Sequence record: ON184125
DNA: 64,000 bases
Source of the DNA: Escherichia phage PC3
Direction: 5' to 3' (one strand)
Shown here: positions 3,382-16,813 of the stretch, piece after piece
Layout of the letters: every line of letters begins with the position of its first letter
Numbering within the stretch: position 1 is the first letter of the stretch
Notes under the pieces: generated by a model
The model's input: the letters and a program-made list of their open reading frames with translations, nothing else
Told to the model about the DNA's origin: nothing
The model's database searches: none
Position numbers and translations under genes: made by a program

Positions 3382-3996
3382 ATGACGATGACAACGTTGA
3401 AGGCCATGGCCTTGTCCGTGACCTTTACCATTGCCAGCGGGAATGTGCACGCTTCCCAAAGTACCACCCAATGTGATTATAATTTCTCCGAGCAACAACT
3501 TAATACGATGGCAACCGCCTATCACGTAGGCAAGACACAAGATCTTGGCTACACTCTGGCCGCCATATCTTGGCGTGAGAGCCGCGCTGGCGAAGATGTA
3601 GTGTCAATGCGATACGGCCTCAAGGCGGCCAACATGGGAGCCTTTCAGAACAAGGTGAAGACAGTTGGTGATCGCGAAGGTTGTAAGAATCGCAAGTGCT
3701 ATGCCAATGTCGCTATAAAGTTGCTGACCGACCAAGAATATGCCGCGCAAGCCGCCCTCGATGAGATGCAGTTCTGGCTGACCTATCACAATCAGAATAT
3801 CCGCAAATCCCTCTCCTCTTACAATGCTGGCTTCGCCCGTAATCCTGCATCGAACGCTTATGCTGCCGACGTCGTGAAGAAAGCTAAATATCTTCAGAAA
3901 TGTGTGTCCTTCGAAGGCCGGACCATCTCCGAGGTAGATCCTCAGGTGATCGCCATGAACAAGCACACAATAGAGAAACTGAAGAGGACAAGATAA
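3382..3996 (+). CDS. secreted lytic transglycosylase-like protein (SLT-domain-like) with signal peptide
   Basis: 204 aa; N-terminal signal-peptide-like segment (MTMTTLKAMALSVTFTIASGNVHA); SWRESRAG (catalytic Glu-Ser-like), MGAFQ, SYNAG motifs reminiscent of lytic transglycosylases; preceded by hairpin and AGGAAC...ATCATG initiation region. Confidence 0.55.
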   Translation: MTMTTLKAMALSVTFTIASGNVHASQSTTQCDYNFSEQQLNTMATAYHVGKTQDLGYTLAAISWRESRAGEDVVSMRYGLKAANMGAFQNKVKTVGDREGCKNRKCYANVAIKLLTDQEYAAQAALDEMQFWLTYHNQNIRKSLSSYNAGFARNPASNAYAADVVKKAKYLQKCVSFEGRTISEVDPQVIAMNKHTIEKLKRTR

Positions 3997-4634
3997 TGAA
4001 CATCACTCCATCTCAGGCCGGATATGAACATATCTTGGTCTTCATTGCTCTACAGGGTGCGAAGGAAGGCATCATCGTATCCGAGTACTCAGGTACGGTT
4101 CGCCTTGCTGATTATGTCGCACCGGAGGCATTTATCAAGAAGTGTATTGACGCATGGTGCCTCTATGCCCTCAGCACATACCCTGCTCCTCCTGAGGGTG
4201 AGCTGTTGTTTACTGTGCCGACTCCGGCTGTTGGCGATACAGACGCGATCTTTGCCGATATGCTGACCAAGGGGTATCTGGTGTATGACATCACCCACGA
4301 TGTCTACTCCTTTACATCACTGAACACCGTGTTTGGATTCACCATCACATCTGAAGCCAACATCCCTGACTGGGGTATCTTGGCATGGGGCGTTGACGGT
4401 CTGGGTGCAACCTACGCATCGTCTGACGTCGGTGCGGTTCTGATTGATGAGGGTGTCACCATGGAGCAGTACCTTGCCCAGTTCCCTCAGCACAATATCA
4501 CAGGCAGCGACATCATTTTGGTCCAGCCTGGCGCTATCGCTCTCCCCCGTTTGGTAAATGGCTGGAAACCGCAGCTGAAGGATATCATCGCAGGTATTCG
4601 ATCCCACATTCCGGTTGTGAATCCGACGCCGTAA
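3996..4634 (+). CDS. hypothetical protein
   Basis: 212 aa from ATG overlapping previous stop (TAATG); track ORF 3900..4634 trimmed to internal Met 33. Confidence 0.55.
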   Translation: MNITPSQAGYEHILVFIALQGAKEGIIVSEYSGTVRLADYVAPEAFIKKCIDAWCLYALSTYPAPPEGELLFTVPTPAVGDTDAIFADMLTKGYLVYDITHDVYSFTSLNTVFGFTITSEANIPDWGILAWGVDGLGATYASSDVGAVLIDEGVTMEQYLAQFPQHNITGSDIILVQPGAIALPRLVNGWKPQLKDIIAGIRSHIPVVNPTP

Positions 4635-4741: not shown

Positions 4742-5077
4742 ATGACACAACTCAAGAACTTCACTGCCGATGACATGTTTGCCTTCCAGGGTGCTGAGCA
4801 CTTTGCTGACGGCTCTGTACCTCGCATCTACTACTTCTCCGACGAAGAAATGGAAGATTTCTTCTCCCTGATGGAAAAGGACTACGAACCAGACGACTTC
4901 GTTTATATCATCCATCACGCTGAAGGACTGACATTGGGTTGGACGGCCAACAACGAACCAGAAGAAGTAAACTTTCCTGAAGGTATCATGTCAGAGCGCG
5001 TCGAATATCTACTGGAAGCTCTGGACCCCCACACCCTCCCGCTCTGGGCGATGTCTGTAGCCCAAGTTCAAAAATAA
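4742..5077 (+). CDS. hypothetical acidic protein
   Basis: 112 aa (MTQLKNFTADDMFAFQ...); start set at ATG with AGGAAC 8 nt upstream; track ORF 4721 starts 7 codons earlier. Confidence 0.6.
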   Translation: MTQLKNFTADDMFAFQGAEHFADGSVPRIYYFSDEEMEDFFSLMEKDYEPDDFVYIIHHAEGLTLGWTANNEPEEVNFPEGIMSERVEYLLEALDPHTLPLWAMSVAQVQK

Positions 5078-5080
5078 GAT

Positions 5081-5107
5081 AAGGGGGCTGACGCTCCCTT
5101 TTGGTTT
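5081..5107 (+). terminator. rho-independent terminator
   Basis: GGGGGCTGACGCTCCC stem (one G-U pair) followed by TTTTGGTTT. Confidence 0.6.
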
Positions 5108-5152
5108 CGCTAATTAGAAGAAACCGCCATTAATTCAGTCAGGAGATATAAA

Positions 5153-7582
5153 ATGTCAAAGCTAAGTTTCCTCCAGTTCATGCAGGAAAGAGATCAGTTG
5201 GACGAAGCGTTCAACTCCGCTCCGTATGAGCTGACCATGGGTAAGAAGAACGCAGGCGATGTGTTCTTCACCTTCATCGACGAAGATGAAAAGGAATACC
5301 GTATTCAGTTCTATACCCCTCAGGGGCTGGGCAAGAGCGTTCGTCAGGTTTTCATCGGCCAGAAGCGCGGCTCCGTCTATCCTGACGCCATCGCTCGCTT
5401 CAAGAACCCAATGCGCGTTATCGCTTCCATGATCGAAGCGACCAAACAATTCATGGCGACTCCTCTGGGTAAGACCATCGATGGCTTTGCTGTCAACTTC
5501 TCTAAGAAAGCGCTGGATCGCGGTATGACCCTGATTCCTAAGATCATCCGCCAGTCCGGCCTGAAACAGAAGCTGAATGTCATGGACCTGACCTACGCGC
5601 CTGTCCCCGACCGTGGTTATGTGTGGTTGGTCCGCAAGGGTAAAGATCCGGCTCAGGTATTCGACGGTCCGAAGATGCAGGGCATCACCTGGGATGATCC
5701 AGACAAGGTCGGTGACGTTCCTGAGCAGCCAGTTGTACCAGCAGGTTCGGACAGAAATAACCCAGCCAACATTGTCGGTTCTGGAACTGCTGTTATTGAT
5801 GCCAAACGACTTGGTGCTCGGGAAGTAAACGTGGAACGATTCAAAAACGGTGTTCGCATGCGTTCTCAAAACGGTGACGTCGACATCAGTATTTCCGACC
5901 CAGACTTTTCAAATGCAGCAAGTGCGACTGATGCTGCCACAGCCTCTGTTGTGGTCAAGAACGGGCGTTACGAAGGTGCCATCAATTCAAAGCGCAAGAT
6001 TGCTCGCATCTCGAACGAGCAGGGTACTGAATGGGATATCATCGGTGTCAACGGGGAAACCCTTGTCTCTATCAAGTTGAACAAAGTGTCTAAATCCGCA
6101 TCGGATTCGACCGAGAGTACAACCAGTGTTGATCAATTACGTGACAGCGGTTTCATCGCTCGTGTTCTGGGTATCATTGATACCCACGTTGGGCTGGACA
6201 CTTCTATTCTTCCTGGTGAGAACATCCGTCGTGTGGGCGCTGGTCGTTACACGACGGCAGGCGGGTTGGTTATCGTTGTCAACTTCACAAACGTCCTCGC
6301 TGGTTTCGTTCAATACTCAGTTTTCAGCGAAATTGCTGAAGAGAAGAGCGTGGCCAAAGGTAGCGCCCGTGACGTCGCCAATGCGGTAATTGCGTCCATC
6401 TTTGAGGTTGCCAAGACCCAGTACACTGGCGAATGGGAAATCGGAGCAGTGCAAACAAGCGCTCCATACCCTATCAAGGCCATCCGTCATTCTCAGGGCT
6501 GGGGATATGTAGAAACCGCAAACTGGACTCTGAAAGTGTCCGACGCTGTCCTGAATCGTGTGAAGCCAGGGAACACTGCTCTGCTGGAACTCATCAAAGA
6601 GCCTCCGCGTGGCAAGCACCCGCTGGAAATCATCCCAGAGAAGGGCGACAAGACCCTGATGCTGAAAGATCGTATTACCGGGGCCATCTATGGTTCTATC
6701 GACCTGAATGCCCAAGGCGCTGATCTGGTCAACTCTGGAACCCTGAATATACCAAGCAACGCCATGGTGTTTGGTGAGACTGTCAACGGTATGTCCATCA
6801 CTTGGTCTGGCGTCAATTTCCCGAAAACTGGGAAGTATGATGGTGCTGTATTGACCACGAATGTGACCTATTACTACGACAAAGGCAAAGTGGCGATCAC
6901 GCCTATTGTATCCAATAAAGGTCGTACCCTGAACAATCCGAAGACATATGAACTTACTTTGAAGAAAGATATTGTTCAGGCCGTGATCGATGAAATTTCT
7001 TCTAAAATGGAAATGATATCTCGGAATATACAAACTCTGAAAAGCACGTCGTATAATCCGAAACAAGTATTTTTGGACGACATTTCTGTTGACAACAACG
7101 GTTCAGTCCTTTGGCGCGGGTACGACATGGCGGATCGCCGCACTAATGAATTTATGTTGGGTATCCTGTCCAAAGAAACCGAGAGACTGGAGAAAGAGTC
7201 GGGTACTGCGAAGAAGACTGGTGCCGACCTTGCGGCATACGCCGACTCCATCCGCGACAACGCACCAAAAGGCCGCGACCTGGATTGGCAGATCTATGCA
7301 AGCCGTGATGGTCAGACTCTGAACGTGGACTGGGATATCACCTTCCGCCGCAACACAACTGAAGGGGCATATCGCGAGTTCAAATCTCAGATTGACCGCG
7401 CCAACCAGTACCTGCAGACTCTGTACCGGGATGCGAAGTCCAAGGGTTACAACCCGACTGAACCAAACCTGATGACTCTGGATAGCGCCCAGCAGTCTGA
7501 CCAGTGGGCACGAGACTACGGGGAAGGCGCATACAGCGAGTACGAGCAGTCCCTGGGTGGCAACATGCAGATTAAGATCTGA
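5153..7582 (+). CDS. large hypothetical protein (809 aa)
   Basis: Long uninterrupted ORF with SD AGGAG 8 nt upstream of ATG; flanked by terminators on both sides; no family recognised. Confidence 0.8.
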   Translation: MSKLSFLQFMQERDQLDEAFNSAPYELTMGKKNAGDVFFTFIDEDEKEYRIQFYTPQGLGKSVRQVFIGQKRGSVYPDAIARFKNPMRVIASMIEATKQFMATPLGKTIDGFAVNFSKKALDRGMTLIPKIIRQSGLKQKLNVMDLTYAPVPDRGYVWLVRKGKDPAQVFDGPKMQGITWDDPDKVGDVPEQPVVPAGSDRNNPANIVGSGTAVIDAKRLGAREVNVERFKNGVRMRSQNGDVDISISDPDFSNAASATDAATASVVVKNGRYEGAINSKRKIARISNEQGTEWDIIGVNGETLVSIKLNKVSKSASDSTESTTSVDQLRDSGFIARVLGIIDTHVGLDTSILPGENIRRVGAGRYTTAGGLVIVVNFTNVLAGFVQYSVFSEIAEEKSVAKGSARDVANAVIASIFEVAKTQYTGEWEIGAVQTSAPYPIKAIRHSQGWGYVETANWTLKVSDAVLNRVKPGNTALLELIKEPPRGKHPLEIIPEKGDKTLMLKDRITGAIYGSIDLNAQGADLVNSGTLNIPSNAMVFGETVNGMSITWSGVNFPKTGKYDGAVLTTNVTYYYDKGKVAITPIVSNKGRTLNNPKTYELTLKKDIVQAVIDEISSKMEMISRNIQTLKSTSYNPKQVFLDDISVDNNGSVLWRGYDMADRRTNEFMLGILSKETERLEKESGTAKKTGADLAAYADSIRDNAPKGRDLDWQIYASRDGQTLNVDWDITFRRNTTEGAYREFKSQIDRANQYLQTLYRDAKSKGYNPTEPNLMTLDSAQQSDQWARDYGEGAYSEYEQSLGGNMQIKI

Positions 7583-7589
7583 TCATCGA

Positions 7590-7607
7590 AAGCCCCTTCG
7601 GGGGCTT
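7590..7607 (+). other. stable hairpin with UUCG tetraloop
   Basis: AAGCCCC-ttcg-GGGGCTT perfect 7 bp stem directly after stop of the 809 aa gene; 3' arm overlaps TATAAATA box. Confidence 0.6.
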
Positions 7608-7614
7608 ATAAATA
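7607..7614 (+). promoter_or_regulatory. T4-type late promoter box TATAAATA
   Basis: Exact TATAAATA 23 nt upstream of ATG 7638; consensus of T4 late (gp55-dependent) promoters from established knowledge. Confidence 0.5.
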
Positions 7615-7637: not shown

Positions 7638-7943
7638 ATGAAACCGTTTATCGAATATTTTAAAGAACAAGCCGCTAAACCTCAGACCCATGCTGGTGTC
7701 CAGGGTAAGACCGTATCCATCACCAAGCAAGCTGACGGCACTCAGTGGTGCTCCGGTGCTACCGTGACCCAGATCACCCCTGACAATCAGGCGGATGTCT
7801 ACAACCTGGAGTTAACCAACGGCAACACTATCAAGGTGAAACTGACCCCAGACCAGACTCACGGTATCTCCCAAGGTCAGGAAGTCGTTGCTGTCCATGA
7901 CGGTTTCGAATTCTTCTTTGGCAAGTCTGCCGACAAAGACTAA
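7638..7943 (+). CDS. hypothetical small protein, probably late-expressed
   Basis: 101 aa; SD GAGGAG upstream; TATAAATA box upstream. Confidence 0.65.
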   Translation: MKPFIEYFKEQAAKPQTHAGVQGKTVSITKQADGTQWCSGATVTQITPDNQADVYNLELTNGNTIKVKLTPDQTHGISQGQEVVAVHDGFEFFFGKSADKD

Positions 7944-7983
7944 GTGAAACCATCAAGATGACTCTGGTCAAACAGTGATTACA

Positions 7984-8014
7984 ATCCCCCTAAATACAGG
8001 GGGATTTCTTTTTC
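7984..8014 (+). terminator. rho-independent terminator
   Basis: ATCCCCC-taaataca-GGGGGAT hairpin followed by TTCTTTTT. Confidence 0.7.
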
Positions 8015-8028
8015 TGAGGAAACAAATC

Positions 8029-8382
8029 ATGGTTAACGCGAGTATTTTCATCAACCGTGGACTGCTTGCTATAGCCCACTCTCATGCCTTGCACTTCGTT
8101 ACAACGTCCTATGCCAAGCACAAGGCACTCGGGGAGTTCTACGGGGAACTGGAGGGCTTGCTGGACACGTTTACCGAAGCATACATCGGTGCTGGTGGTC
8201 AGTATGTTCCATCATTCGAGAATATCAAATTGTACAACCCAGACCCTATCTCCTATATTAACAGTGTGGTGATAGACGTCGATGGCATCTACAAGCAGTG
8301 TGACTCCCACCTTCAGAGCACTCTTGACGATATCAAGACACTGTGTTATCAGACGATCTACAAACTGAAGCAGCTGTCGTAA
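8029..8382 (+). CDS. hypothetical protein
   Basis: 117 aa from ATG with SD GAGGAAAC upstream (track ORF 7975 would include the terminator). Confidence 0.55.
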   Translation: MVNASIFINRGLLAIAHSHALHFVTTSYAKHKALGEFYGELEGLLDTFTEAYIGAGGQYVPSFENIKLYNPDPISYINSVVIDVDGIYKQCDSHLQSTLDDIKTLCYQTIYKLKQLS

Positions 8383-13062: not shown

Positions 13063-15345
13063 ATGATTAACGTTATAAAACGTGACGGATCTTCTGTCCC
13101 ATTTGATATTGAGAAACTACACGCAGTCGTAGACCGCGCCTGTGATGGCCTGTCTGGTGTGTCAATGTCAGAGGTGATCGCTGCATCGAAGATTCAGTTC
13201 ACCGACAACATGAGAACAGATCGCATTCAGGATATCCTCATCCAGGCTGCGGCTTCACTGATCTCTGTAGACAAACCCAATTACCAGTATGTGGCTGCTC
13301 GTCTGAAGTCGTATGATCTGCGCAAGGCTGTCTACGGTCAGTACAAGCCGCCTCACCTGCTGGACATCTTCGTCAAGAACATCAAACAGCGCGTGTATGA
13401 TCGTGAGTTCCTTGATCTCTACACGACCGAAGAGTTCAACGAGCTGAACGATGTCATCAATCACAAACGCGATAAGAACTTCACGTGGGCGGCCATGGGT
13501 CAGCTGACTGAGAAGTACCTGTTGCGCGACCGTTCCAAGAAAGACAGCAAGATCTTCTACGAAACCCCTCAGGTCATGTACATGGGCATCGCCATGGCGT
13601 TGTTCTCTAACTGGGACAAAGCCAGCCGCCTGGAGATGGTGAAAAAGTTCTATGAATATGCCAGCACAGGCAAGTTCAGTCTTCCCACCCCGATTATGGC
13701 AGGTGTTCGTACTCCTACCCGTCAGTTCAGTTCCTGTGTGTTAATCAAGACTAATGACACCCTGAACTCTATCAACGCAACAGCCAAGACCATCGTTGAC
13801 TATGTGTCCAAACGTGCGGGTATCGGCTTCGATGTCGGGGTAATCCGTGGGATTGGTAGTCCTATTCGCGGCGGAGAGATGGTTCACACAGGCCTGATCC
13901 CGTTCATCAAGTATCTCACTGGGGCACTCAAATCGTGCTCTCAGGGCGGCATTCGTGGTGGTGCAGCAACAGCGTACATCCCTCTGTGGCATTACCAGTT
14001 CGATGACGTCGTTGTTCTGAAGAACAACCGTGGTACTGAAGAAAACCGCGAACGCCGTATCGACTATGGCATTCAGATCAACCGCGTGATGTTTGAGCGC
14101 CTTGTTGCCAAGCAGCCTCTGTATCTGTTCGACCCGAAAGACAACCGCGAAATGTATGAAGCATACTTCGCTGACGTTGACAAGTTCCGTACTCTGTATG
14201 AGAACATGATCAAGGCCGCCGATGCCGGTTTGGTTCGTGCTAAAAAGTTGCAGGCAGAAGAGGTGTTCCAGATGCTGTTAGACCAGCGTTCAGACACAGG
14301 CCGCATCTACATCGCGTTTGTCGATCACATGAATGAATACAGTCCATTCAACCTAGACACGATTTATTCTTCAAATCTTTGTTTAGAAATCGCCCTGCCG
14401 ACCCGTGAGTTTGAGCAGTACAACGATGAAAACGGGCGCGTGGCTCTGTGCACCCTGGCTTCCTTCAACCTGACGGCGTTCGAAGATCCTACGGAAATGG
14501 AAGACGTGGCGTTCGTGTTGGTATCTGCGCTGGACATGCTGTTGGAATATCAGGACTATCCAGCGATTCAGGCTCGTAAAGCTGTTGAAGACTATCGTCC
14601 TCTGGGTGTTGGTATCGTGAACGTGGCTCACTTCTTGGCCAAGAACTTCACGGGCTATGGCTCACCAGCTGGTCTTGAAATGCTGGATGCGTGGATGGCA
14701 CACCTACACTTCTATCTGGTCAAGGCTTCCAACCGCCTGGCTATGAAGTTCGGGGCGTGTAAACGCGGAACCATCCACAATAATGGGCAGGTCACCGCCG
14801 ACCTTCAGCCGCTTCCACTTGATATCCTACCAAATGGCAAGAAGCCAGAAGGGATGGCATACGGGCTGGATTGGGATGGGTTGAAGGATAATCTGAAGAC
14901 CTATGGTATCCGCAACGCCACCCTGCTGGCCGTAGCCCCTACCGAAAGCTCCTCACAGGTCCTCAACGCAACGAACGGTATTGAGCCACCGAAGGGCTTG
15001 GTGAGCATCAAGGGTAGCAAGGACGGCACTTATAAGCAGGTCGTCCCGGACGTTGAGACCCTTGGACCGATGTATGACCTCAAGTGGGACCTGGACTGTA
15101 TTGAGTACCTGAAGACCGCTGCTGTCATCCAGCGCTGGGTTGACCAGTCCATCAGTACCAACACGTGGTATGACCCAGAGAAGTACCCTGACAGCAAGAT
15201 CCCTCGCGCCAAGATGATGCAGGATATCCTGTCGTTCTATATGTGGGGTGGCAAGACTCTGTATTACAACACAAACAAGGACGCCAAGGAAGACGAAGAG
15301 CTGAAACAGGCTGAGGAAACTCAGTGCGACAGCTGTGTTGTATAA
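13063..15345 (+). CDS. nrdA: ribonucleotide reductase large subunit (class Ia NrdA)
   Basis: 760 aa; ATP-cone-like N-terminus (VIKRDGSSVPFDIEKL), conserved NLCLEI active-site segment, C-terminal CDSCVV redox tail. Confidence 0.95.
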   Translation: MINVIKRDGSSVPFDIEKLHAVVDRACDGLSGVSMSEVIAASKIQFTDNMRTDRIQDILIQAAASLISVDKPNYQYVAARLKSYDLRKAVYGQYKPPHLLDIFVKNIKQRVYDREFLDLYTTEEFNELNDVINHKRDKNFTWAAMGQLTEKYLLRDRSKKDSKIFYETPQVMYMGIAMALFSNWDKASRLEMVKKFYEYASTGKFSLPTPIMAGVRTPTRQFSSCVLIKTNDTLNSINATAKTIVDYVSKRAGIGFDVGVIRGIGSPIRGGEMVHTGLIPFIKYLTGALKSCSQGGIRGGAATAYIPLWHYQFDDVVVLKNNRGTEENRERRIDYGIQINRVMFERLVAKQPLYLFDPKDNREMYEAYFADVDKFRTLYENMIKAADAGLVRAKKLQAEEVFQMLLDQRSDTGRIYIAFVDHMNEYSPFNLDTIYSSNLCLEIALPTREFEQYNDENGRVALCTLASFNLTAFEDPTEMEDVAFVLVSALDMLLEYQDYPAIQARKAVEDYRPLGVGIVNVAHFLAKNFTGYGSPAGLEMLDAWMAHLHFYLVKASNRLAMKFGACKRGTIHNNGQVTADLQPLPLDILPNGKKPEGMAYGLDWDGLKDNLKTYGIRNATLLAVAPTESSSQVLNATNGIEPPKGLVSIKGSKDGTYKQVVPDVETLGPMYDLKWDLDCIEYLKTAAVIQRWVDQSISTNTWYDPEKYPDSKIPRAKMMQDILSFYMWGGKTLYYNTNKDAKEDEELKQAEETQCDSCVV

Positions 15346-15376
15346 ATTGGTCTAAACCTACTACCGTTATATCATC

Positions 15377-15396
15377 AGGGGTGAGAGATCACCCCT
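15377..15396 (+). other. intergenic hairpin flanked by direct repeat ATCATCAGG
   Basis: AGGGGTGA-gaga-TCACCCCT perfect 8 bp stem between nrdA and the next ORF; no T-run. Confidence 0.6.
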
Positions 15397-15414
15397 ATTC
15401 ATCAGGAGTTCTAT

Positions 15415-15708
15415 ATGTTCCAAACGTTATTGTTAGTCCCTGGCCAACCAGGTATCTTGCTCGAACACAACAGCAAAATGGAAGCGGAGAATGTTCTCCG
15501 CAACGTGAAGGTGGCCACTGCTTGGCACAACGGCGGCGAAGTCACGGCTATCCCGTTGAATTACACGGATCCAATGGATACTGTGAACCGTACTCACATC
15601 CTTCTAGACCTTAGCAAATTACCTGCAGACAAACGCCAGGATTTTGTTGTTAACATCAAGAATTACATCACCACTGAACAGATCAAACTCCACGAAGGCA
15701 AGGCATAA
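15415..15708 (+). CDS. hypothetical protein
   Basis: 97 aa between nrdA and nrdB. Confidence 0.5.
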   Translation: MFQTLLLVPGQPGILLEHNSKMEAENVLRNVKVATAWHNGGEVTAIPLNYTDPMDTVNRTHILLDLSKLPADKRQDFVVNIKNYITTEQIKLHEGKA

Positions 15709-15709
15709 C

Positions 15710-16813
15710 ATGAGCGAACAGAAACAATTCTCCGTATTCGACCCAAGCTCGGACAACACTGGTCTACCGTTCTTCGGTGACCCAGTGAGCATCCAGCGTT
15801 ACGATGTCGTGGCCTGGCCATTCGTACAGAAGTGGTATGAGAAAGGTCTCAGCCAGTTCTGGCGCCCTGAAGAGGTGGACATCACCAAGGACAAGGCAGA
15901 CTTCGCTACTCTGAACGAAGCAGAGAAACATGTCTACTTCAGCAACCTGAAGCGCCAGACCATGCTGGACTCTATCCAGGGTGCGGCACCGTTCGAGGCG
16001 TTTGGTCCATGGGCGTCTACCCCTGAAATGCAGTTTGCTGTCCTTGAATGGACGCGCCAGGAAGCCATTCACTCTTTATCATACACCCACATTTTGCGCA
16101 ACACTGTGAACGATCCAGGTATCGTGTTTGACCACGTACTGGATGTTGTGGAGATCGTGGACTGTGCTCACCAGATCAGTGTGTACTACGATGACATGGT
16201 ACAGTACAGTGGCATGCGTATGGCCGGACGCATCTTCACCCGAGAAGATCTGATGAATGCCAAACGCGCATTCTGGCGTGCTCTGTTTGCTGCCAACACA
16301 CTGGAAGGTATCCGCTTCTACGTGTCCTTTGCATGCTCTTGGGCATTCACACAGTTCCAGAAGAAAATGGAAGGCAATGCCAAAATCATTCGACAGATCG
16401 CCCGTGATGAGCAGGATCACCTGATCCTGACCCAGACGCTGCTAAACCGCCTGCCTGGTATGGACCCCGACTTTGCAATCATCCGTGAGGAACTGCGTGG
16501 TGAGATGACCCAGATGTTCCTGGACGTGGTCCATCAGGAGAAGGAGTGGGCGAACTACCTATTCAAAGACGGTTCCATCCTGGGGCTGAACGCCAAGATC
16601 CTTCATCAGATGGTAGACTGGCTGGCAACCCACCGGATGGGCGCTATCGGGCACCCATATCCCGGTGAACCTCGCAAGGAGAACCCAGTCCCATGGATTA
16701 ATGACTGGCTAGATAATAAGGCAATGCAGTACGCGTTGCAGGAAGCGGAAGCTCCTGATTATCTGATGGGTGTACTGACTGGTTCGGTATCCGATGGCCT
16801 CAAATTCGCTTAA
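15710..16813 (+). CDS. nrdB: ribonucleotide reductase small subunit (NrdB)
   Basis: 367 aa from Met 23 of track ORF 15644; diiron-ligand-like EEAIHS and E...H motifs; directly downstream of nrdA. Confidence 0.9.
   Translation: MSEQKQFSVFDPSSDNTGLPFFGDPVSIQRYDVVAWPFVQKWYEKGLSQFWRPEEVDITKDKADFATLNEAEKHVYFSNLKRQTMLDSIQGAAPFEAFGPWASTPEMQFAVLEWTRQEAIHSLSYTHILRNTVNDPGIVFDHVLDVVEIVDCAHQISVYYDDMVQYSGMRMAGRIFTREDLMNAKRAFWRALFAANTLEGIRFYVSFACSWAFTQFQKKMEGNAKIIRQIARDEQDHLILTQTLLNRLPGMDPDFAIIREELRGEMTQMFLDVVHQEKEWANYLFKDGSILGLNAKILHQMVDWLATHRMGAIGHPYPGEPRKENPVPWINDWLDNKAMQYALQEAEAPDYLMGVLTGSVSDGLKFA

What the first reader, a model, noticed from the sequence alone, without database searches (positions are those of the whole stretch)
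5153..7582. Isolated 809 aa orphan gene bracketed by hairpins
A large protein with no recognisable catalytic motif is preceded by a terminator and strong SD and followed by a UUCG hairpin; its central region is Ser/Thr/Ala/Asn-rich and low-complexity.
Basis: seen in the sequence. Interest (0 to 1): 0.5.

Follow-up and report, generated by a model that had tools for sequence, protein, structure and literature searches.

The report
Alt-like packaged virion protein, mosaic body
This 809-residue gene of an Ackermannviridae phage is not an orphan: relatives carry it as an abundant virion protein, and its conserved front end matches the part of phage T4's injected Alt enzyme that precedes the catalytic domain, so it is most likely cargo loaded into the phage head and delivered with the DNA.

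Summary
The ORF (5153..7582, +, 809 aa) is real. The window is Escherichia phage PH4 (Ackermannviridae).

"Orphan" is wrong. The gene is PHROG 3867, present throughout the family.

It has three parts:
- a nearly invariant N-terminal domain (aa 19-186);
- a mosaic centre built from exchangeable cassettes;
- a conserved C-terminal domain (aa 691-809).

The N-domain is homologous to the N-terminal domain of T4 Alt, an ADP-ribosyltransferase that T4 packages in its head and injects. hhalign gives 92% probability (E 7e-7), and Foldseek finds several Alt proteins at E about 1e-6. The known Alt cleavage site for the prohead protease (ITE-6) aligns with a conserved L-D-E at residues 16-18. The leader resembles the T4 capsid-targeting sequence. 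PH4 encodes a gp21-type protease.

In other phages the same N-domain carries ADP-ribosyltransferase, metallopeptidase-like and other effector domains.

Orthologues are abundant in purified virions: LIMEstone1 ORF081/082 (23 + 4 peptides) and Sajous1 gp214 (196 spectra, third highest).

Best reading (about 0.6): a head-internal protein loaded like Alt but lacking the enzyme domain, probably ejected into the host. What it does there is unknown.

Both hairpins are real. The downstream UUCG hairpin is conserved and abuts a late promoter for the next gene.

The parts
5081..5100 (+). Upstream G+C-rich hairpin followed by TTTTGGTTT. Terminator-like element ending the preceding gene (4742..5077).
   Evidence: dG -12.4 kcal/mol, z -1.8. 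An equivalent hairpin with a T-run is present in Vi01 and Sajous1.
5106..5126 (+). Conserved non-coding block TTCGCTAATTAGAAGAAACCGC between the hairpin and the ribosome-binding site. Function unknown; possibly a promoter or operator.
   Evidence: Conserved in PH4, LIMEstone1, Vi01 and Sajous1. Not a repeated motif in the window.
5141..5145 (+). Shine-Dalgarno AGGAG, 7 nt before the ATG.
   Evidence: Conserved as TCAGGAGA in four phages.
5153..7582 (+). Coding sequence, 809 aa (89.2 kDa, pI 8.1). PHROG 3867.
5153..5206 (+). aa 1-18, helical leader MSKLSFLQFMQERDQLDE. Capsid-targeting-sequence-like (F6, F9, M10, E12), ending in L16-D17-E18, the predicted site for the prohead protease.
5207..5710 (+). 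aa 19-186, N-terminal domain homologous to the T4 Alt N-domain (GNAT-like fold without the CoA motif). 89% identical between genera.
5711..6127 (+). aa 187-325, S/T/A/N-rich linkers plus cassette 'A', a beta-rich module that is optional in the family.
6128..6712 (+). aa 326-520, cassette 'B', present in most family members. 37% identity to Vi01.
6713..7222 (+). aa 521-690, cassette 'D', the best-modelled part (pLDDT 75-93).
7223..7579 (+). aa 691-809, conserved C-terminal domain (W..TFRRNT ... SAYSEYEQSLGG). Also found as free-standing small phage proteins.
7590..7607 (+). UUCG-tetraloop hairpin at the 3' end of the gene, conserved across three genera.
7607..7614 (+). TATAAATA, a T4-type late promoter -10 for the next gene. 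Annotated as a late promoter at the same place in LIMEstone1.
7638..7943 (+). Downstream 101-aa gene whose product starts MKPFIEYFKE, a T4 capsid-targeting-sequence look-alike. Its orthologues are virion proteins. Probably a small internal head protein of the same cluster.

Best explanation
The gene encodes a head-internal cargo protein of the Alt type that lacks the Alt enzyme.

Proposed mechanism:
1. The protein is made with an 18-residue helical leader that resembles the T4 capsid-targeting sequence.
2. The leader and the Alt-type N-terminal domain (aa 19-186) direct it into the scaffolding core of the prohead.
3. The gp21-type prohead protease (Peptidase_S77), encoded elsewhere in the PH4 genome, cuts after L16-D17-E18, and possibly after M10-Q11-E12. 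The mature protein then starts at A19.
4. Some tens of copies stay in the DNA-filled head and are expelled into the cell with the genome.
5. The body is cargo: cassettes A, B and D, which are exchanged between phages, plus a conserved C-terminal domain.

What the cargo does is not known. The most likely role is binding or neutralising host factors, or protecting the incoming DNA, early in infection.

Shown here or in the literature: the domain architecture, the homology to the Alt N-domain, conservation of the cleavage-type motif, the presence of the protease gene, and virion association and abundance of orthologues.

Inferred: location in the head rather than the tail, cleavage, ejection, and activity in the host.
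For: 1. N-domain homology to Alt.
- A diverse alignment gives a confident model (pLDDT 89.8, pTM 0.81).
- Foldseek against viral models finds Alt or 'RNA polymerase ADP-ribosylase' proteins of phiAS5, HY03, CF1, SP18, Henu6 and 50AhydR13PP at E 2.6e-6 to 7e-5, probability 1.00. Some of these hits are 272-392-aa N-terminal halves without the ART domain.
- hhalign of the N-domain profile against seven T4-like Alt N-termini gives probability 91.9%, E 6.9e-7, over 160 columns (target 13-176 to Alt 3-179).

2. Cleavage site and leader.
- That alignment puts L16-D17-E18 on Alt I-T-E. Alt is cut by gp21 at ITE-6 (PMC5694885).
- The aligned tripeptide is hydrophobic-x-E in 68 of 70 distant and 42 of 42 close homologues.
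- The leader pattern F6, F9, M10, E12 fits the T4 CTS MKTYQEFIAE. In that sequence, residues 4 and 7 target and residues 8 and 10 direct processing (PMC9026906).

3. PH4 encodes a Peptidase_S77 protein between the portal and scaffold genes (E 1.9e-29).

4. Virion proteomics of orthologues.
- LIMEstone1 ORF082 + ORF081 are this gene (94% and 86% identity at the two ends). They are 'confirmed structural', with 4 and 23 unique peptides and 55% coverage for ORF081.
- Sajous1 gp214 (795 aa, 48% identity over the full length) gave 196 spectra. That is third after the capsid protein (924) and VriC (311).
- Vi01_094c is annotated 'phage associated protein'.

5. The same N-domain heads effector proteins elsewhere.
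- ADP-ribosyltransferase in 3 of 63 distant homologues and ATLF in 1.
- A WHExGH motif near the C-terminus in 8 of 63.
- Deaminase, Zeta-toxin and ParB/Srx fusions.
- P0205 combines PHROG 3867 (aa 6-161) with the Alt PHROG 802 (aa 268-489). It lies beside the gp23, scaffold, S77 protease and portal genes, next to a second N-domain paralogue.

6. The neighbouring gene starts with a near-copy of the T4 CTS and has a late promoter. The C-domain occurs in small phage proteins that often begin with leaders such as MKLxxLxEMAKK or MKTFKEFVKE.
Against: - No experiment on PH4 itself. Virion association is transferred from orthologues that are 48-94% identical.
- The proteomics does not say head or tail. 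One paper calls the orthologue a 'tail completion protein', though without supporting evidence.
- The Alt homology is remote. It needs the diverse profile: with a two-sequence Alt alignment E is 0.0018 at 15% probability, and with the narrow family alignment it is not significant (E 0.84). HMMER gives only 6 bits.
- The leader is offset by two residues from the T4 CTS. The conserved E18 could be structural rather than a cleavage site.
- No late promoter was found upstream. The gene lies among replication genes.
- Nothing shows ejection or any activity in the host.
Confidence: 0.6

Rival explanations
1. It is a structural part of the tail, neck or baseplate. Candidates are the 'tail completion protein' proposed for Sajous1 gp214 within a putative 'ferrojan-horse' iron-binding operon, or one of the unassigned Ackermannviridae baseplate or prong components.
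For: It is abundant in virions. Ackermannviridae lack several T4 baseplate proteins, and unassigned virion proteins must fill those roles. The label is used in PMC10892097.
Against: There is no homology to any tail, neck or baseplate family in Pfam, PHROGs or the PDB. The only detectable homology is to the N-terminus of a head-internal protein. The same N-domain carries toxin-like enzymes in other phages, which makes no sense for a tail building block. Free gain and loss of cassettes is hard to reconcile with a fixed place in a symmetric assembly. The published label comes with no evidence.
Confidence: 0.12
2. It is head-internal but not an injected effector. It would be a scaffold- or core-associated or DNA-organising protein that helps head assembly or genome packing, and stays behind or is degraded.
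For: It shares the head-targeting evidence of the main explanation. It is abundant. No enzyme domain is present. Neighbouring virion proteins include a Dps/ferritin-like DUF5856 protein.
Against: Essential assembly proteins are not usually mosaic; here the centre is only 20-37% identical between genera, with cassettes coming and going. Metagenomic in-frame deletions of the gene exist. Its closest relative, Alt, is dispensable for assembly and is ejected.
Confidence: 0.15
3. It is a non-virion early or middle protein of the replication/recombination region, and its detection in virions is carry-over.
For: It lies between the gp46/gp47 nuclease genes and the primase gene. No late promoter was recognised upstream. 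Low-level contaminants such as ligase and PhoH do appear in the same proteomes.
Against: It gave 23 peptides with 55% coverage in LIMEstone1, and was the third-highest spectral count in CsCl-purified Sajous1. Contaminants in those datasets gave 1 peptide or under 5% coverage. Its neighbours are also virion proteins in two or three independent datasets.
Confidence: 0.05
4. The N-domain is an active GNAT-type acyltransferase, and the protein is an enzyme that modifies a host or phage target.
Confidence: 0.05

Closest known systems
T4 Alt (gpAlt), the head-packaged, injected ADP-ribosyltransferase (PHROG 802; Pfam PF03496 for its catalytic domain)
   Same: Homologous N-terminal domain of about 170 residues. 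A short N-terminal propeptide ends in (L/I)-x-E at the aligned position. It is present in virions at moderate copy number in relatives. The phage has a gp21-type protease.
   Different: No ART domain or any other recognisable enzyme. The body is made of exchangeable cassettes plus a distinct C-terminal domain that Alt lacks. No (L/I)xE site lies near the C-terminus, whereas Alt is also cut at LTE-619. The leader is longer, 18 residues against 6.
T4 internal proteins IPI/IPII/IPIII with the capsid targeting sequence (CTS)
   Same: An N-terminal amphipathic leader with aromatic residues three apart, then hydrophobic-x-Glu. The adjacent gene 7638..7943 carries an even closer copy, MKPFIEYFKE against MKTYQEFIAE. 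Like the IPs, the family diversifies rapidly.
   Different: The IPs are small (8-20 kDa), basic, and have no Alt-type domain. This protein is 89 kDa with pI 8.1. The leader is offset by two residues and is followed by a second x-E site.
Polyvalent and MuF-fused head-packaged effector proteins (Iyer et al. 2017; PMC5512222, PMC9503650)
   Same: The concept matches: a conserved head-association module followed by variable domains delivered with the DNA. Distant relatives of the N-domain carry ART and zincin-like domains typical of such proteins. One C-domain relative has a KMPT-N domain.
   Different: The anchor is the Alt-type N-domain, not MuF. The PH4 protein has no identifiable effector domain.
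Ejection and inner-body proteins of phiKZ/SPN3US-type giant phages
   Same: They are abundant head-internal proteins processed after Glu by a gp21-related protease.
   Different: No sequence relationship was detected. Their propeptides are much longer.

Membership tests
PHROG 3867 (Ackermannviridae-wide protein of unknown function) | Full-length match to the family profile | tested here: met
   E = 0, 1124.6 bits, aa 1-808 against profile positions 1-785 of 787.
T4 Alt-like ADP-ribosyltransferases | ADP-ribosyltransferase catalytic domain (Pfam PF03496) | tested here: not met
   No Pfam hit at E<=1. T4 Alt scores 5.8e-36 in the same library.
T4 Alt-like ADP-ribosyltransferases | Alt-type N-terminal domain | tested here: met
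   hhalign 91.9%, E 6.9e-7, 160 columns. Foldseek gives E about 1e-6 to 1e-5 against six Alt proteins. The match is weak or insignificant with shallow profiles.
T4 Alt-like ADP-ribosyltransferases | Packaged in the head and injected with the DNA | not testable with these tools
   Orthologues are abundant in purified virions. Head location and ejection were not determined.
T4 Alt-like ADP-ribosyltransferases | N-terminal propeptide removed by the gp21 protease at (L/I)-x-E | tested here: inconclusive
   L16-D17-E18 aligns with Alt ITE-6 and is conserved, and the protease gene is present. Cleavage itself was not observed, because the peptide rows for gp214 are missing from the held supplement.
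T4-type internal proteins with CTS | About 10-residue N-terminal CTS: aromatic at positions 4 and 7, hydrophobic at 8, Glu at 10 | tested here: inconclusive
   The target has F6, F9, M10 and E12, which is the same spacing shifted by two. The neighbouring gene 7638..7943 fits exactly.
T4-type internal proteins with CTS | Small basic protein | tested here: not met
   89.2 kDa, pI 8.1.
T4-type internal proteins with CTS | Late expression together with the head genes | tested here: inconclusive
   No TATAAATA-type element lies upstream. Only a conserved block of unknown function was found. No transcriptome paper for the family was found.
GNAT acyltransferases | GNAT fold with the acyl-CoA-binding motif Q/R-x-x-G-x-G/A | tested here: not met
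Tail completion proteins (the label used for Sajous1 gp214) | Homology to a known tail completion or terminator family | tested here: not met
   No such Pfam, PHROG or PDB match.
Polyvalent / MuF-anchored packaged effectors | MuF (or other portal-associated) anchor plus recognisable effector domains | tested here: not met
   No MuF and no effector domain in the PH4 protein. Effector fusions occur only in distant N-domain relatives.

The most novel reading that the evidence does not exclude
A short CTS-like leader plus the Alt-type N-domain is a general capsid-loading adaptor. T4-like, Ackermannviridae and jumbo myoviruses use it to pack interchangeable cargo. The Ackermannviridae member is a non-enzymatic, cassette-shuffled array in which each cassette binds or neutralises a different host defence or takeover target on entry, and the cassettes are swapped between phages as hosts change.
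Probability: 0.15. Interest if true: 0.8.

Novelty: new variant of a known kind. Interest (0 to 1): 0.55.

Why it matters
- How T4-type heads choose their internal cargo is described as 'mysterious' in a recent review. A conserved, modellable domain of about 170 residues is shared by Alt and by a large family of proteins with ART, metallopeptidase-like, deaminase, Zeta-toxin or unknown bodies. That gives a concrete candidate for a loading module, which can be tested by fusing it to a reporter.
- For Ackermannviridae, which are widely used in biocontrol and therapy, it reassigns one of the most abundant unexplained virion proteins. It was published as 'unknown structural' or 'tail completion' protein and is more likely injected cargo.
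- The cassette mosaic marks the protein as a likely player in host-specific conflicts.
- If the adaptor works as proposed, it could be used to load proteins into these phages.

Tried and rejected
- The whole-protein AlphaFold model had pLDDT 63 and a poor N-domain with the shallow alignment. Its Foldseek search against the PDB gave only noise.
- HMM searches of PDB sequences with the whole-family, N-domain and C-domain profiles found nothing.
- A word-indexed homologue search with the N-domain profile returned only 5 short proteins. The search with the T4 Alt N-terminus also returned only 5. It did show that a newer Pfam family, PF26846, covers the Alt N-terminal region but is not recorded on any homologue of the target. 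No paper mentions that accession.
- hhalign of the narrow family alignment against full-length Alt found nothing significant and nothing beyond the N-domain (E 0.84). The C-domain profile did not match Alt (E 0.22) or T4 IPII/IPIII.
- BLAST self-comparisons found no internal repeats.
- Promoter hunt: only two TATAAATA sites in 64 kb, none upstream of the gene. The sigma-70-type scan gave nothing convincing upstream. The conserved upstream block is not a repeated motif.
- The ViI proteomics paper (Pickard 2010) is not held. The Sajous1 peptide table is cut before gp214. The phiD3 and EspM4VN proteomes list proteins only in figures. PP35 has no virion proteome. No whole-virion cryo-EM of an Ackermannviridae phage was found.
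- Mapping the Atu_ph07 N-domain proteins onto its virion proteome was not completed.
Full report
**What is there.** The window is Escherichia phage PH4 (ON184126.1, Ackermannviridae, Aglimvirinae), record positions 64001-128000, matched at 100% identity. The ORF at 5153..7582 (+) encodes 809 aa. AGGAG lies 7 nt upstream of the ATG. The long N-terminus is shared with orthologues in three genera, so 5153 is the start. The GenBank start for PH4 (window 5180) is 9 codons short.

The upstream hairpin (5081-5100, then TTTTGGTTT) is terminator-like but only modestly stable for its composition: -12.4 kcal/mol, z -1.8. The downstream hairpin (7590-7607, UUCG loop) is stable at -13.1 kcal/mol, z -3.7, with 0 of 200 shuffles folding as well. 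It is identical in PH4, LIMEstone1, Vi01 and Sajous1. It has no T-run and abuts TATAAATA (7607-7614). LIMEstone1's authors annotate a late promoter for the next gene at that spot.

**Not an orphan.** The DNA matches 236 phage records. The protein has 276 homologues in the large protein collection and matches PHROG 3867 end to end. There is no Pfam family and no PDB sequence relative.

**Architecture.**
- The family is modular.
- Residues 1-190 are almost invariant within Ackermannviridae: 85-99% identity, in 355 phage records including Vibrio, Aeromonas and Ralstonia phages, some with two copies per genome.
- Between PH4 and Vi01 the N-domain is 89% identical and the C-terminal domain 76%, but the centre only 20-37%.
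- An approximate cassette census of about 120 close homologues gave 36 architecture strings, some from partial proteins, built from about 18 cassettes. The order is always N-[variable]-B-D-[optional]-C. PH4's N-A-B-D-C is a rare type, 4 cases.
- No internal repeats were found.

**The N-domain is the Alt N-domain.**
- An exhaustive HMM search of 1.8 billion representatives found the N-domain at the N-terminus of many proteins of about 280-1400 aa with unrelated bodies.
- With that diverse alignment, AlphaFold gives a confident model: pLDDT 89.8, pTM 0.81.
- Foldseek against viral models recovers the family. It then finds, at E 2.6e-6 to 7e-5 and probability 1.00, proteins named Alt or RNA polymerase ADP-ribosylase from six T4-like phages. 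It also finds proteins with deaminase, Zeta-toxin or ParB/Srx annotations.
- Profile-profile comparison with seven T4-like Alt N-termini fetched from IMG/VR gives 91.9% probability and E 6.9e-7 over 160 columns, target 13-176 against Alt 3-179.
- The relationship is remote. It weakens with a two-sequence Alt profile (E 0.0018) and disappears with the shallow family alignment.
- Only the N-domain is shared. Alt's ART domain (aa 374-614) has no counterpart in the target.
- A natural bridge exists. P0205 has PHROG 3867 at aa 6-161 and the Alt PHROG 802 plus PF03496 at aa 268-489. It is encoded next to the gp23, scaffold, S77 protease and portal genes, beside a second N-domain paralogue.

**Leader and protease.**
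- T4 Alt loses six N-terminal residues by gp21 cleavage at ITE-6, and 63 C-terminal residues at LTE-619 (PMC5694885).
- The hhalign alignment places the target's L16-D17-E18 on that I-T-E.
- The aligned tripeptide is [LI]-x-E in 61 and hydrophobic-x-E in 68 of 70 distant homologues, and in all 42 close ones, at a median of 17 residues from Met1.
- The first 12 residues (MSKLSFLQFMQE) follow the spacing of the T4 IPII/IPIII capsid-targeting sequence MKTYQEFIAE. In that sequence, residues 4 and 7 target and residues 8 and 10 direct processing (PMC9026906).
- PH4 encodes a Peptidase_S77 protein between the portal and scaffold genes, E 1.9e-29.

**Virion evidence from relatives.**
- LIMEstone1 ORF082 + ORF081 are this gene split by a frameshift: 94% identity over aa 1-192 and 86% over aa 685-809.
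- Both are 'confirmed structural proteins'. ORF081 has 23 unique peptides and 55% coverage, second only to the tail sheath in peptide number.
- Sajous1 gp214 is the full-length orthologue, 795 aa and 48% identical. It gave 196 spectra from CsCl-purified virions, third after the major capsid protein (924) and VriC (311). That paper calls it a 'tail completion protein' within a proposed iron-binding operon, without supporting homology.
- Vi01_094c is annotated 'phage associated protein'. So are the orthologues of exactly those neighbours that are virion proteins in LIMEstone1. I infer that this reflects the ViI particle proteome. I could not read that paper.

**Neighbourhood.** The gene lies between the gp46/gp47 recombination nuclease genes and the primase gene. 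It belongs to a small cluster whose products are virion proteins in relatives:
- DUF7270 (3996..4634);
- the target;
- a 101-aa protein (7638..7943) starting MKPFIEYFKE, a near-copy of the T4 CTS, behind a late promoter;
- a Dps/ferritin-like DUF5856 protein (8029..8382).

The C-terminal domain (W..TFRRNT...SAYSEYEQSLGG) is also found as free-standing small phage proteins. These often begin with leaders such as MKLxxLxEMAKK or MKTFKEFVKE.

**Interpretation.** The best-supported reading is an Alt-type head-internal protein. The leader plus N-domain load it into the prohead core. The S77 protease trims the leader at E18. The mosaic body is carried in the filled head and probably ejected with the DNA.
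- Shown: the architecture, the homology, motif conservation, the protease gene, and virion abundance of orthologues.
- Inferred: head rather than tail location, cleavage, ejection, and any role in the host.

I put this at about 0.6, and virion association as such at about 0.9. Against it stand the absence of a recognisable late promoter upstream, the remoteness of the Alt homology, and the lack of any localisation data.

Rivals:
- a tail or baseplate component (0.12);
- a non-ejected head-internal assembly or DNA-organising protein (0.15);
- a replication-region protein carried over as contaminant (0.05);
- an active GNAT enzyme (0.05).

**Novelty.** The gene product was known only as an 'unknown structural', 'phage associated' or 'tail completion' protein. 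I did not find three things described in the literature I could search:
- the link of its N-domain to Alt;
- the CTS-like leader;
- the wider family in which this N-domain heads ART, metallopeptidase-like, GNAT-like, deaminase and Zeta-toxin bodies.

A recent Pfam entry (PF26846) appears to cover the Alt N-terminal region, but it is not recorded on any homologue of the target. I class the protein as a new variant of a known kind: head-packaged Alt/IP-type cargo without the enzyme and with a cassette-shuffled body.

Noticed in passing
window 7638..7943 (+), with 7590-7614 upstream: This 101-aa protein starts MKPFIEYFKE, a near-copy of the T4 IPII/IPIII capsid targeting sequence MKTYQEFIAE. The gene follows a conserved UUCG hairpin fused to TATAAATA. 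Its orthologues (LIMEstone1 ORF080, Vi01_093c, Sajous1 gp215) are virion proteins of about 189 aa. The PH4 copy matches only the first 100 positions of PHROG 4048, so it is truncated.
   Followed up: partly
window 8029..8382 (+); hairpin 7983-8006: A DUF5856 / Dps-ferritin-like protein (PHROG 858, 'starvation-inducible regulator') that is virion-associated in LIMEstone1 (ORF078) and Sajous1 (gp217). A strong hairpin with a T-run precedes it. LIMEstone1 annotates a 'late promoter' inside that hairpin's loop, which looks like a mis-annotation of a terminator.
   Followed up: partly
window 3996..4634 (+): A DUF7270 protein (E 1e-110), a virion protein in LIMEstone1 (ORF085) and 'phage associated' in Vi01 (096c). 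Its function is unknown.
   Followed up: partly
window 3382..3996 (+): Relatives annotate this gene as RegB endoribonuclease. It has a signal-peptide-like N-terminus (MTMTTLKAMALSVTFTIASGNVHA) and a weak SLT lytic-transglycosylase hit (E 3.9e-4, just under the Pfam cut-off). Its Sajous1 orthologue gp211 gave 31 spectra in virions. The RegB label is doubtful.
   Followed up: partly
window 5106-5126 (+): A non-coding block, TTCGCTAATTARRRAAACCGC, is conserved upstream of the gene in phages of three genera. It is not a repeated motif in the window (5 matches at <=2 mismatches against 3 expected). Its function is unknown.
   Followed up: partly
L018 (LIMEstone1 HE600015) 14416-16012, minus strand: ORF082 and ORF081 are one gene split by a frameshift near codon 104 in the deposited sequence. 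Both halves were detected in virions.
   Followed up: yes
proteins P0167 and P0187 (metagenomic): These short proteins join the N-terminus of a neighbouring gene (Vi01_095c-like, or DUF7270) in frame to the last ~45 residues of the C-domain. They look like natural deletions of the whole gene, which suggests it is dispensable in some lineages.
   Followed up: no
L021 616-3968 and L022 6483-11600 (metagenomic T4-like contigs): Two N-domain genes sit in tandem with different bodies: one ART and one unknown, or one 468 aa and one 1199 aa with a C-terminal HExxH motif. In L021 they lie directly beside the gp23, scaffold, S77 protease and portal genes.
   Followed up: partly
window 5180 (GenBank start of PH4_000077): The deposited PH4 annotation starts the gene 9 codons too late and so cuts off most of the CTS-like leader.
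   Followed up: yes
window 26190-26197 (-): This is the only other exact TATAAATA in the 64-kb window. It was not examined.
   Followed up: no
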